A DNA stretch of 64,000 bases from Lytechinus pictus (taxonomy: Eukaryota): positions 4,156,001 to 4,220,000 of the forward strand of contig NC_087252.1 of the NCBI RefSeq assembly GCF_037042905.1. Reading direction: 5' to 3'. Below are positions 36,801 to 39,800 of this stretch, piece after piece. Position numbers and translations under genes: made by a program. The first letter of the stretch is position 1. The number at the start of each line of letters is the position of its first letter. The notes below the pieces were generated by a model that worked only from the letters and a program-made list of their open reading frames with translations, did no database searches and was not told the origin of the DNA.

Positions 36801-39800
36801 TCTCTTTGAGTACTCCTAATAGAGGATAGAGAAAGGTGGAGGTGGTATCTAATATGGATTTGATATCCTTAATGAACATAATGAAAAAAAAATGAAAATC
36901 CATATTTTATTGTCCGAAATAGAAAACCGAGAATAGAAGTAATTCCGAAAACTCATTTTGCCCAATTGATCGTGGGCCCGACAGCCACTGTGCAGCACCA
37001 GATCGACGAGGCTCTATCCCTTAAATGTGCCAAATAGGGTAGGAGCAACTCGCATCCTTTTTGGTCTGACGCAGCCGGGATTTGAACTCCCGACTTCCTG
37101 GTTGTGAGACGGACGCTCTACCAACTGAGCCAACACACCGGTCAAGTTTATTATATCATCAATGGTCAATGAAAGCATTGTATATCATCTTAAATTAACA
37201 GCTTAGTAAATGTTCTATTTTAGATTTTACATACATTATAAAGTAGCAAACTTCTTTTATAGCCAAGGAAGATTTCCCTATGTAGCATTTAGGAGACTGT
37301 TTTTCATGGATTTAACCATTGCCATAGCTCTAAAATACACCTTTTTCCGAGCTTTCCTGAATAGTAATTTCTAAATATGAGGATATTATAACAGCCCACC
37401 AAGCATATGTTTTTCTTCAATGCTTGTATTTGACTCTGTATATATTGTTTTATTTTGATATTGTAGGGCTCTGTAGCAGTAACAGGTGCTGCAGTGAGGT
37501 GGTTACGAGATAACTTGGGCATCATCAAAACAGCTCCAGAAGTTGGTATGTATTAGAAACAGAAGAGGAGGAGGAGGGGGAAGATGAGGATGAGAGGGCA
37601 GGAGGAGGACGAAGAAGAGAAAGAGAAAGATGAGAGGAGGAGGTTGATTAGGAGGAAGAGGAATGAGATAAAGAAGTAGAAAAAGCGGAGAAAGAAAAAA
37701 AAGAGGATTAGGAGGAGGAAAAGGACAAAGAAAGATTAGGGGAAGAAGTAGAAGATAAAATAAGAAGAATGAAAGAAAGAAAAAAGAAAGGAAAGGAACA
37801 GTGAATGCAAAACAGTGATAGGAAAAGGTGTGAATATATTCATATCTCGCTTGTTTCTTCATATCTATTTTATTAAATGCAACTTTTCTATATCCACAGA
37901 GACGCTGGCTAAAGAAGTTGATAACAACGGTGGTGTATATTTTGTACCTGCTTTCTCCGGTCTCTATGCTCCTTACTGGGAGGCCGATGCAAGAGGGTAA
38001 GCTTGCCTAACATATCAACATTGCTCCATACACTAATATGGAGGGTGGTTTAACTGAGAGCTAAACAGACATTTTAAGTGAGATTAAGGCCAAGTCCACA
38101 CAGAAAAGGTTGATTCGAATCAATAGAGGAAAATTAAACAAGTATAATGCTGAAAATTTCATCAAATTCAGACGTAATATAAGAATGTTCTGACATTTTG
38201 AAAGTTATTTATTTATTTGTTTATTTTTTACAAAAACAAGTTATATGAATAACTCAGTGAAATGGAAATCATATCATTAAACATTTTGAAAGTCAATTAA
38301 TACAGCCTCATTTTCATAATGTAAAGTTCTTTTTTACAAACATGTACACCAAACAACGTGCACCAGTTTTGGCTCTTTAAAAGTTGTCTACAAAGCTAAA
38401 CTTTTGAATTAAATACCAAATTTGGATAAGTCAAAACTCATCAAGGATAAAGTACAAGCAATTCATAGTTTTTGTTCTGTTCGTCTGCTTATGTAGGACT
38501 ATCTGTGGTCTAACTCAGTTCAGTACCAAGGCCCACATAGCCAGAGCTGTCCTTGAAGCAGTATGTTATCAAACCAGAGAGGTGAGAAATTGATTTATCT
38601 TTCTTAAAAGGCAGATGGACAATTTTTTTACCCCAGACTTAAAAACCTTGGACATGCCTGTAATAGATACAATATTTGGGGGTAAGCAAACTTGGTGTCC
38701 CATCGAGAAATTCTTTGACCAAGCCTGTTTTAGCTTTGGGCATCTGTCAGGCCAGGGAAAAGTGAGATGACTTTACTGTGGTGCGTTGTGGCACCGTGGA
38801 TTAGTCTTCTGACTTTGAAACAGAGGGTCGTGGGTTCGAATCCCGAGCCATGGCGTAATTTCCTTCAGCAAGAAATTTATCCACATTGTGCTGCACTCAA
38901 CCCAAGTGAGGTGAATGGGTACCTGGCAGGATTAATTTCTCGAAAGCATGAGCACTGAAAGGCAACTCAAGCTAAAGCCGGGGTAATAATAACAATGTGC
39001 GTGTGTGTGTGTATTTTAGTTTTGTCAGACGTGTATCAATCAAATATGATTGTTTACGTCTGGGACTGACCTTTTACGTCACCATCCAAAAGACGTGACC
39101 AGGGCTCGAACCCCGAACCTCTGTATCAATTTGTAACTTCCCCACAGCTTGGATTATAGGCGCACGCCACAACGCCCAGCGCATCGGAATAGAATATTTC
39201 TAGATAGATGGCGCTATATAAATGCCTATTATTAATATTACTATATATGGTAATATCTAGTGGCTTACATAAAGTATGCTGTTCATAAATCTTGTTCTTC
39301 TGTGGGTGATTTATATCCAAATGGTGTCAGATTCCCCATGAAAACTCCTTGAATCAATTTAATGCCTTGCGTTGTCTTAATTCAAATTATAGAATAAAAG
39401 CCTGCTGTATTTCTAGTTTAGGTAATTGCATTTCACCAATCACTACTAGATTATATGAATTTGTGTGCCCTAAAAAGGTTATTATATGTAGGATGTGAAA
39501 ACGAAAATGTGTTTTATTGGATGGATTACCGGTAATTGATTTTACATCAAAATTGAATATCTGGATTTATTGATTTTACATCAAAAATGAATATCTGCAT
39601 TCTTAAACATAAACCCCTACTTAAAGGGGAATCCAGCCTTGGCCACAAAATGTTGGGTTTGGAAGGAGAAAAATAAATTAAACAGAATGGTGAAAGTTTG
39701 AAAGAAATCGGACAAGCAATAAGAAAGTTATGGCTGCTTTAAAATTGAGATCACTAATACTATGTAGATTTCAAATTGGCAACTGGGTAAGTAAATTATG

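What the first reader, a model, noticed from the sequence alone, without database searches (positions are those of the whole stretch)
38997..39180. SINE with a 7SL/Alu-like head in an invertebrate genome
Seen: a 184-bp minus-strand insertion splits a tRNA-SINE. It starts GCTGGGCGTTGTGGCGTGCGCCTATAATCCAAGCT, which matches 27 of 35 positions ungapped to the 5' end of human 7SL RNA as I recall it (GCCGGGCGCGGTGGCGCGTGCCTGTAGTCCCAGCT). Next come a tRNA-type B box (GGTTCGAGCCC), a segment reminiscent of the Deu-SINE core (TTTGGATGGTGACGTAAAA) and a (CA)n tail. Known: 7SL-derived SINEs are rare outside primates, rodents and their relatives. Inference: an independent chimeric 7SL/tRNA SINE family, which may recruit SRP9/14 as Alu does.
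Basis: partly seen in the sequence, partly recalled or inferred. Interest (0 to 1): 0.75.

Follow-up and report, generated by a model that had tools for sequence, protein, structure and literature searches.

The report
Sea urchin SINE with 7SL head
This is one slightly decayed copy of a many-copy jumping element in a sea urchin whose first 46 bases look copied from the signal-recognition-particle (7SL) RNA, as in human Alu, an origin that the papers read here report only from a few vertebrates.

Summary
The element is 39001-39180 (minus, 180 nt), inserted with a 2-bp duplication into a tRNA-type SINE in a glycerol-kinase intron of a sea urchin. Nt 1-46 match the Rfam Metazoa_SRP 5' end (25-27 bits, below the gathering score) and a real, non-host 7SL gene (35 of 46); 15 of 17 Alu-domain pairs are kept, one by a double change. 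Nothing after nt 46 is 7SL-like: the B-box half matches the local tRNA-type SINE head (22 of 25), followed by a Deu-motif stub, a strong 3' stem-loop and a (CA)n tail. Sequencing runs show a family of hundreds to thousands of copies, mostly with the head, in two species. The head equals in extent the 46-nt domain that suffices for SRP9/14 binding and retrotransposition in human cells (PMC11760393). Not tested here: the host's own 7SL gene, Repbase/Dfam, the partner LINE, SRP9/14 binding, transcription as a free RNA. The scan had already noted this family at least 15 times elsewhere in this genome.

The parts
39001..39180 (-). whole SINE copy (180 nt)
   Evidence: sequence; boundaries from junction analysis and from contigs of other loci that cover 39001-39179 (table 8: X1 record 8, X3 record 23)
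39135..39180 (-). 7SL-derived head, nt 1-46 = 5' Alu domain (helix 3, U-turn, helix 4, closing stem); holds the A box
   Evidence: Rfam model positions 1-44; 35 of 46 identical to 7SL gene L004; 15 of 17 pairs kept
39106..39129 (-). tRNA-type segment (anticodon loop to T arm) shared with the host tRNA-type SINE family
   Evidence: 22 of 25 aligned columns, 0 of 2000 shuffles as good
39102..39112 (-). B box GGTTCGAGCCC (nt 69-79)
   Evidence: sequence; no 7SL similarity in nt 47-184
39073..39095 (-). stub of the Deu/Nin core (first motif only); in this copy it holds a T4 run at nt 90-93
   Evidence: Deu alignment in the supplement of PMC7245038; the motif occurs once in the window, here, and in 0 of 100 shuffles; T run
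39026..39062 (-). 3' stem-loop, probable recognition signal for the partner LINE reverse transcriptase
   Evidence: folding z = -4.88, 0 of 200 shuffles; function inferred
39001..39013 (-). (CA)n tail
   Evidence: sequence
38999..39000 (.). 2-bp target-site duplication, 3' copy (the 5' copy is 39181-39182); a 4-bp reading with one CpG change is also possible
   Evidence: joints table 5
38777..39000 (+). host tRNA-type SINE, left part (head and core)
   Evidence: 84% over 222 bp to the copy at 46143-46363 and four more partial copies
39181..39245 (+). host tRNA-type SINE, right part with (ATT)n-like tail
   Evidence: joints 38996->39179 in other family members (table 5)
38582..40481 (+). intron of a glycerol kinase (FGGY family) gene that holds both SINEs; the 7SL-headed element is antisense
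   Evidence: Pfam FGGY_C on the exons at 37773-37997 and 40482-; exon 38497-38581 and splice sites read by eye

Best explanation
A copy of a sea-urchin SINE family that arose when the first ~46 nt of 7SL RNA (the 5' Alu domain) replaced the 5' half of the tRNA head of an older Deu-type SINE. Shown: the modules, the copy number class, the presence in two species, the clean insertion into another SINE. Inferred: RNA polymerase III reads it from a hybrid promoter (A box from 7SL, B box from the tRNA half); the 5' domain folds as in 7SL and binds SRP9/14, which brings the RNA to ribosomes; a CR1/L2-type LINE reverse transcriptase recognises the 3' stem-loop and primes at the (CA)n tail, leaving a duplication of 2-4 bp. 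This particular copy is probably inactive: it differs from the common family letter at 8 or more places, among them G24 of the U-turn triad and a change that makes an internal T4 run.
For: Head: Rfam SRP positions 1-44. A 25-letter pattern made from the head (nt 11-35) found 4 places in the metagenome collection and 4 of 4 are 7SL genes or their 5' parts (270-280 bits for the two full-length ones). Outside that pattern 12 of 21 head positions are identical to L004, and the differences keep the pairs: closing stem 3 of 3 with C3-G43 changed to U3-A43, helix 4 3 of 3, loop-loop 3 of 3, helix 3 6 of 8 against 7 of 8 in L004 (sliding the partners drops pairing from 91% to 35-59%). The hagfish SINE1-1_EBu consensus is 26 of 30 identical over nt 1-30 (counted by eye). 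In the runs, 97-99% of contig depth in X1 and X3 and 221 of 237 RNA reads show G at nt 24, the 7SL letter (table 3). In organism B (X13) a loose end of 46 contigs continues from the body into 18 letters identical to 7SL nt 20-37, including A36-C37 that this copy lacks. Family: head depth is 0.81 and 0.92 of body depth in X1 and X3, and about 8,500 and 16,000 times the depth of the unique flank; 108 and 113 distinct contigs carry the head variant (counted up to 128). tRNA half and Deu stub. Stem-loop. Mechanism: the 46-nt 5' Alu domain is necessary and sufficient for SRP9/14 association and gives 86% of Alu retrotransposition in HeLa cells (PMC11760393); G4-U23-G24 is the triad at the SRP9/14 site (PMC12265939).
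Against: The host's 7SL gene was not seen (pattern scans 23, 26, 30, 65 empty), so descent from the host gene is not shown here. Identity to L004 over nt 11-35 is partly by construction, since L004 was fetched with that pattern; 16 of the 18 letters of the organism-B match lie in the same stretch. The Rfam score is below the gathering threshold and drops out of a whole-window scan. Nt 3-15 also match the host tRNA-type SINE head (13 of 14 columns; 14 and 8 of 2000 shuffles). The isolated 46-nt head does not fold better than shuffles (z = +0.54), but neither does the real 7SL head (z = +0.98). With two sequences the pair count has no power against its shuffle control (246 of 500). The RNA run is unstranded, shows no start or end pile-up, 83% of laid reads run on into unlike sequence, and the head has about a fifth of the tail's depth (322 against 1,479), so a free Pol III transcript is not shown. 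Summed contig depth is not a copy number. No partner LINE was found in the window. A G24C change did not reduce SRP9/14 pull-down in lysate in PMC12265939, so the claim that this copy cannot bind is weak.
Confidence: 0.8

Rival explanations
1. Same 7SL origin, but the head is only a promoter part (A box) or a passenger: the family moves by its 3' stem-loop like any stringent CR1/L2 partner SINE and SRP9/14 plays no role.
For: The 3' Alu strand is absent, so the closed Alu fold cannot form; the strong 3' stem-loop is enough for LINE recognition in stringent systems (established knowledge; PMC4824008 passage); in organism A the common form has lost A36-C37 of the helix 4 loop, while a minority keeps two more letters there (tables 3, 4); the host tRNA-type SINE without any 7SL part is about 5 times deeper in the same runs.
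Against: The 7SL part ends at the edge of the 46-nt domain rather than after the A box at nt 15; triad, loop-loop letters and closing stem are kept in the family letters seen; the 5' domain alone binds SRP9/14 (PMC11760393).
Confidence: 0.35
2. Sandwich origin: the outer frame (nt 1-15 with the A box, and nt 52 onward) comes from one tRNA-type SINE and only nt 16-46 were swapped in from 7SL by a template switch at the shared A-box letters.
For: Nt 3-15 match the host SINE head in 13 of 14 columns and nt 52-75 in 22 of 25; over nt 6-15 the host SINE matches 10 of 10 and L004 7 of 10.
Against: Nt 1-3 pair with nt 43-45 as in 7SL, with a double change; the hagfish 7SL-derived head matches nt 3-15 in 11 of 13 without a gap (by eye), so these letters occur in a 7SL context; earlier notes say the host 7SL gene matches from nt 1 (unchecked).
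Confidence: 0.12
3. An ordinary tRNA-derived SINE whose 5' half resembles 7SL by chance or convergence of A-box-rich sequence.
For: Low Rfam score; the match is short (46 nt, under the 60-nt overlap that SINEBase asks for); sea urchin SINEs listed in the papers seen are all tRNA-headed.
Against: Nt 16-46 do not align to the tRNA-type heads; no tRNA model hit on the element and ARAGORN finds none; 4 of 4 pattern hits are 7SL; organism B is closer to 7SL than this copy.
Confidence: 0.04
4. A one-off chimeric retrocopy (a 7SL 5' fragment joined to a truncated SINE during one insertion), or human Alu contamination.
For: Only one copy in the 64-kb window.
Against: Head depth 0.8-0.9 of body depth and more than 100 distinct contigs in two independent DNA runs; head-to-tail contigs at other loci and in a second species; the body is not Alu-like and the flanks are sea-urchin sequence.
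Confidence: 0.01

Closest known systems
SINE1-1_EBu of the hagfish Eptatretus burgeri (Kojima 2020, PMC7245038; parts 1-3 of 4 and supplement passages read)
   Same: 7SL-derived head grafted on an older tRNA-derived SINE; non-L1 partner; microsatellite tail; a few thousand copies (2,363 full-length); 26 of 30 identical over nt 1-30 (by eye).
   Different: The hagfish element keeps 7SL nt 1-96 with its own B box plus the 7SL 3' end, has an RTE-derived bipartite tail and ~17-bp duplications; this one keeps only nt 1-46, takes the B box from a tRNA half, has a Deu stub, a stem-loop tail and a 2-4-bp duplication.
Alu, B1, Tu (Euarchontoglires) and Urop of the shrew mole (PMC13023118; part 1 of 5 and passages read)
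   Same: 5' Alu domain at the 5' end with the U-turn triad and loop-loop letters; 7SL/tRNA combinations exist among them (B1-dID, B4, Tu; one Tu unit is said to have a dual 7SL and tRNA origin).
   Different: Those arose by a central deletion that keeps both ends of 7SL, use the 7SL B box, end in poly(A) and are moved by L1. Here there is no 7SL 3' part, no poly(A), and the host is an invertebrate.
DeuSINE / Nin-domain SINEs, e.g. SINE2-3_SP of sea urchin and AmnSINE1 (PMC4824008, PMC3747384, PMC7245038 supplement; passages read)
   Same: First Deu motif right after the head (21 of 24 columns against AmnSINE1, by eye); in some DeuSINEs a 5S rRNA piece was added in front of a tRNA head (PMC4758252 passage), a precedent for head grafting.
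   Different: Only a ~23-35-nt stub, not the 70-120-nt Nin or 330-nt Deu domain; the grafted RNA is 7SL. The SINE2-3_SP sequence itself could not be seen, so a relation to it is untested.
SA46 / AY46, the engineered minimal 5' Alu domain (PMC11760393; abstract, sections 17-18 and passages read)
   Same: Same 46-nt extent.
   Different: SA46 is a construct without a B box and cannot go a second round; the urchin element supplies a B box from a tRNA half and is a natural multi-copy family.

Membership tests
SINE (SINEBase definition, PMC3531059) | short (<1 kb) interspersed repeat with at least 100 copies | tested here: met
   180 nt; 108 and 113 distinct contigs at one head position (counted up to 128); depth ratio 8,459 and 16,081, or at least 273 and 519 after my correction for 31-letter contig overlap
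SINE (SINEBase definition, PMC3531059) | at least 60% identity with tRNA, 5S or 7SL over at least 60 nt | tested here: inconclusive
   37 of 60 (62%) against L004, but 35 of these lie in nt 1-46; the true 7SL overlap is 46 nt
SINE | Pol III transcription as a discrete RNA | tested here: inconclusive
   A and B boxes present; one unstranded RNA run shows reads but no start or end pile-up
SINE1 (7SL-derived head, Kojima 2020) | 5' part derived from 7SL RNA | tested here: met
   Rfam positions 1-44, non-host 7SL 35 of 46, pairs kept
SINE1 (7SL-derived head, Kojima 2020) | head closer to the host's own 7SL gene than to others | not testable with these tools
   no genome held; earlier notes claim it, unchecked
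SINE1 (7SL-derived head, Kojima 2020) | not a plain 7SL retrocopy (uniform chimeric structure in many copies) | tested here: met
   head/body depth 0.81 and 0.92; head-to-tail contigs at other loci in two species
Alu/B1/Urop/Ebu1-1 type | both the 5' and the 3' part of 7SL kept around a central deletion | tested here: not met
   nt 47-184 score 14 against L004, reached by 1,663 of 2,000 shuffles
Alu/B1/Urop/Ebu1-1 type | B box inherited from 7SL | tested here: not met
   the B-box region aligns to the tRNA-type SINE head, 22 of 25
Alu/B1/Urop | poly(A) tail and L1-type long target duplication | tested here: not met
   (CA)n tail, 2-bp duplication
Alu-type mechanism | SRP9/14 binding by the 5' domain | not testable with these tools
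   triad G4-U23-G24 and loop letters present in the common family form, G24 changed in this copy
DeuSINE / Nin | Deu or Nin central domain (70-120 nt or more) | tested here: inconclusive
   first motif present and not chance; the rest is absent or reduced to a 13-letter resemblance (10 of 13, by eye) inside the stem-loop
MetaSINE | 66-bp Meta domain | tested here: not met
   no resemblance, by eye, to the Meta consensus printed
catalogued Repbase/Dfam/SINEBase family | identity to a deposited consensus | not testable with these tools
   databases not available; SINEBase supplement not held; short words of the element not found in four supplement searches (one file each not searched in 45 and 73)

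The most novel reading that the evidence does not exclude
An invertebrate evolved, independently of vertebrates, a 7SL-headed SINE that keeps exactly the 46-nt SRP9/14-binding 5' Alu domain and nothing else of 7SL, completes the promoter with a tRNA B box, and uses SRP9/14 to reach a stringent, stem-loop-reading LINE enzyme: a natural version of the minimal Alu domain, showing that SRP hijacking needs neither the closed Alu fold, nor L1, nor poly(A).
Probability: 0.45. Interest if true: 0.78.

Novelty: new variant of a known kind. Interest (0 to 1): 0.62.

Why it matters
Two papers read here state that 7SL-derived SINEs are known only from Euarchontoglires, hagfish and shrew mole, and that all keep both ends of 7SL around a central deletion (PMC7245038, PMC13023118). 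A family in sea urchins would be the first outside vertebrates among the papers found, and it breaks the central-deletion rule. Its head has the extent of the domain shown to be enough for SRP9/14 binding and retrotransposition, so it offers a natural test of why 7SL makes good SINE heads: promoter or ribosome targeting. Hundreds to thousands of copies in two species allow a test of selection on the fold without bench work.

Tried and rejected
Whole genome: none held, so no copy count, consensus, host 7SL gene or partner LINE. Pattern scans for more copies: 0 hits in metagenomes with a body pattern, 0 in viral contigs, 0 in prokaryote genomes; a head pattern gave 4 hits, all 7SL genes of another animal, none a SINE copy. 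Other copies in the window: none. tRNA models: ARAGORN 0 genes; Rfam gives the host SINE family only a T-arm hit of 11.1 bits, E=8.8, so 'tRNA-type' rests on box layout and that arm, not on a host tRNA gene. The LINE at 54641-57980 is not the partner: its 3' end shares nothing with the element's tail. Empty alleles: the joints 38996->39179 (13, 9 and 1 contigs; 262 RNA reads) are best read as other, uninterrupted copies of the host SINE; no listed contig bridges a junction from unique flank, so polymorphism at this site is unknown (15 of 293 joints and 24 of 63,509 pieces were shown). Weak Rfam hits to miRNA, snoRNA and plastid models on the stem-loop (E 0.4-8) were dropped as generic hairpin hits. 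Sequence and relatives look-ups in earlier findings returned nothing. PMC1484453 (DeuSINE paper) is not held.
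Full report
Setting. The window is 64 kb of 31-39% GC animal DNA. An exon of CFAP68 is 96% identical to the protein of Strongylocentrotus purpuratus, 90% to Diadema, 81-83% to sea stars and a brittle star and 75% or less to the named hemichordates and others (26 hits of 34 candidates), so the host is a sea urchin; the species was not determined. The finding lies in an intron (38582-40481, splice sites read by eye) of an FGGY-family gene that I read as glycerol kinase (the name is my inference). 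No whole genome is held.

Observation. It interrupts a plus-strand SINE whose left part 38777-39000 is 84% identical to a copy at 46143-46363, with further partial copies at 29729-29867, 36588-36782, 962-1078 and 8201-8248. The inserted element has no second copy in the window. The only exact duplication at the junctions is 2 bp, with the 3' end at 39001. In public runs other members of the host family join 38996 to 39179 directly (13, 9 and 1 contigs, 262 RNA reads), which gives a target of the same length with one CpG-type difference: a clean insertion with a 2-bp, at most 4-bp, duplication. The element is thus 180 nt.

The head. Rfam Metazoa_SRP is the only hit in a 2.2-kb scan (27 bits, E=1.5e-4) and the best in a 201-bp scan, where it covers model positions 1-44 (25.3 bits, E=4.2e-5). 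This is well under the gathering score of 70, as expected for a 46-nt piece of a 299-nt model, and the hit is lost in a whole-window scan at E<=0.05. A 25-letter pattern made from nt 11-35 found 4 places in the metagenome collection; 4 of 4 are 7SL genes or their 5' parts, two full-length at 270 and 280 bits. They come from another animal, not the host. Against L004 the head is 29 of 35 and 35 of 46 identical, while the next best 35-mer in the window reaches 19. The identity in nt 11-35 is partly built in by the search; what is not built in is that every hit is 7SL, that 12 of the other 21 positions agree, and that the differences keep the Alu-domain pairs: 15 of 17 named pairs form in this copy (16 of 17 in L004), the closing stem has a double change C3-G43 to U3-A43, and sliding the partners lowers pairing from 91% to 35-59%. 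With two sequences the shuffle control has no power (246 of 500). The structure is Rfam's plus three loop-loop pairs that I recalled from the human Alu-domain structure. Free-energy folding does not single out this head (z=+0.54), nor the real 7SL head (z=+0.98). An independent comparison is the hagfish SINE1-1_EBu consensus, 26 of 30 identical over nt 1-30 (by eye). One result points the other way: nt 3-15 also match the host SINE's A-box region (13 of 14 columns; 14 and 8 of 2,000 shuffles), so the extreme 5' end is ambiguous until the host 7SL gene is seen.

The rest. Nt 47-184 have no 7SL similarity (1,663 of 2,000 shuffles as good): the 3' strand of the Alu domain and the 7SL B box are absent. 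Nt 52-75 align with the anticodon-loop-to-T-arm part of the host SINE head (22 of 25 columns, 0 of 2,000 shuffles) and hold the B box at nt 69-79. That these heads are tRNA-derived rests on their box layout and a weak T-arm hit; ARAGORN finds no tRNA in the window. Nt 86-108 match the first motif of the Deu domain printed in the supplement of PMC7245038 (21 of 24 columns against AmnSINE1, by eye); a pattern drawn from that alignment hits the window once, here, and 0 of 100 shuffles. It is a stub, not a full Nin or Deu domain, and it does not resemble the Meta domain. Nt 119-155 form a stem-loop with z=-4.88 (0 of 200 shuffles), followed by an A-rich spacer and (CA)n. A 3' stem-loop, a microsatellite tail and a very short duplication fit a CR1/L2-type partner (established knowledge, recalled; stem-loops shared with CR1 and L2 partners are described in PMC4824008). 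The partner was not found; the LINE at 54641-57980 has an unrelated end.

The family. Four of 24 listed runs were laid on 38600-39400 at 80% likeness. In X1 and X3 (organism A, which also covers the unique flanks) summed contig depth over the head is about 7e5 against 83 and 44 in the flank, ratios of 8,459 and 16,081; the tool warns that this is no copy number, and overlap of short contigs can inflate it up to about 31-fold, which leaves at least some 270-520 (my correction). Head depth is 0.81 and 0.92 of body depth, so most copies carry the head. Contigs from other loci span head to tail (X1 records 7 and 8, X3 record 23, X13 record 12). Organism B (X13) has no depth in the outermost flank bins, so it is another species, yet it holds the family; 46 of its contigs continue from the body into 18 letters identical to 7SL nt 20-37, of which the last two, A36-C37, lie outside my search pattern and are missing in this copy. 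Among the 40 best-supported of 170 differences, 8 fall inside the element: nt 24 is G in 97-99% of depth in X1 and X3, which restores the G4-U23-G24 triad at the SRP9/14 site (PMC12265939), and nt 93 is C, so the T4 run at nt 90-93, a possible Pol III stop, is private to this copy. The two family differences inside the stem-loop keep it (one G-U pair, one loop letter; my reading). This copy is therefore at least 4% from the common form and probably dead; the same paper found that G24C still pulled down SRP9/14 in lysate, so loss of binding is not certain. The RNA run (about a quarter read) is unstranded, has no start or end pile-ups, and 83% of all laid reads run on into unlike sequence: these are mostly copies inside longer transcripts. 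Its depth falls from 1,479 near the tail to 322 on the head; the tool drops human-like reads without notice, so this dip cannot be read.

How it works. Shown: four modules, many copies, two species, clean insertion. Inferred: a template switch or recombination put 7SL nt 1-46 in place of the 5' half of a tRNA head of a Deu-type SINE; Pol III uses the 7SL A box with the tRNA B box; the LINE enzyme reads the 3' stem-loop. The open step is SRP9/14. In human cells the first 46 nt of 7SL are necessary and sufficient for SRP9/14 association and give 86% of Alu's retrotransposition, but lack a B box and so cannot go a second round (PMC11760393). The urchin element has that extent of 7SL and a borrowed B box. 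I put the 7SL-graft reading at 0.8, and SRP9/14 use, given that, at a little over one half.

Comparison and novelty. It works like hagfish SINE1-1_EBu (a 7SL head on an older tRNA SINE, non-L1 partner) and meets the SINE1 definition by its head, tested against non-host 7SL only. It is not a member of the Alu/B1/Urop/Ebu1-1 structural type: no 7SL 3' part, no 7SL B box, no poly(A). PMC7245038 (parts 1-3 of 4 read; supplement passages) and PMC13023118 (part 1 of 5 and passages) list 7SL-derived SINEs only for Euarchontoglires, hagfish and shrew mole. Six searches aimed at an invertebrate case (listings and abstract starts seen, 20 of 27 and 15 of 58 listed in the last two) showed none; some searches served other questions. 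The three sea urchin rows in the table of PMC3747384 are tRNA-headed (passages); passages of PMC3531059, PMC4758252, PMC4824008, PMC5786205 and PMC5804259 were also read. Repbase, Dfam and SINEBase could not be searched, the SINEBase supplement is not held, one supplementary file each of PMC4824008 and PMC4758252 was not searched, and PMC1484453 is not held; the family may be deposited there as a tRNA SINE. The scan itself has noted this family before: 15 findings hold all my search words and 35 fit a look-up in this genome (8 shown each). Those notes give about 1,000-1,600 copies and say the head matches the host's own 7SL gene over 45-47 nt; I could not check either figure, though my bounds include the first.

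Verdict. Real feature, new variant of a known kind, interest 0.62.

Noticed in passing
run X3, table 5c (joint 39179 back to 39001): Contigs join the tail of one copy to the head of the next with four letters between (depth 465, about ten times the flank): head-to-tail dimers or insertion into the family's own tails.
   Followed up: no
window 39107-39113 and 39145: Subfamily variants: a minority lacks 7 nt before the B box (174 RNA reads at depth 958; 22 and 19 contigs), and a minority has two more letters in the helix 4 loop (64 reads at depth 408), closer to 7SL and to organism B.
   Followed up: partly
window 38777-39245, 46063-46363, 29729-29886, 36588-36782, 944-1078, 8201-8248: The host tRNA-type SINE family, six copies or fragments in 64 kb and about five times the depth of the 7SL-headed family; its core looks CORE-like to me (recalled, not tested).
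   Followed up: partly
window 54641-57980 (+): A nearly complete LINE with endonuclease-like and RVT_1 frames (Pfam E=2e-35) ending in a (TTGAA)n tail; an upstream frame at 53766-54469 may be its ORF1.
   Followed up: partly
window 7969-8193 and 39618-39842: A 225-bp repeat pair, 95% identical in opposite orientation; the first overlaps a frame that looks like a LINE 3' end.
   Followed up: no
window 18101-18243: A GC-rich long hairpin-like stretch (weak Rfam MIR949 hit, E=0.04) built of short repeats and overlapping the edge of an exon-like frame; possibly a MITE.
   Followed up: no
window 1700-17000 (+): Exons of a receptor-like gene with Ig-like and fibronectin-type-III-like repeats, a transmembrane segment (about 11400-11500) and a charged tail (read by eye).
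   Followed up: no
window 38600-38838: Unique flank contigs of organism A differ from the window by 8-10% (16-25 letters in 200-240), high even for a polymorphic species; the window may be a divergent haplotype or a close relative.
   Followed up: no
L001-L004: Several 7SL gene copies of an unnamed animal inside metagenome contigs, each with a TGACGTCA motif about 50 bp upstream; L002 breaks off after about 180 nt.
   Followed up: no
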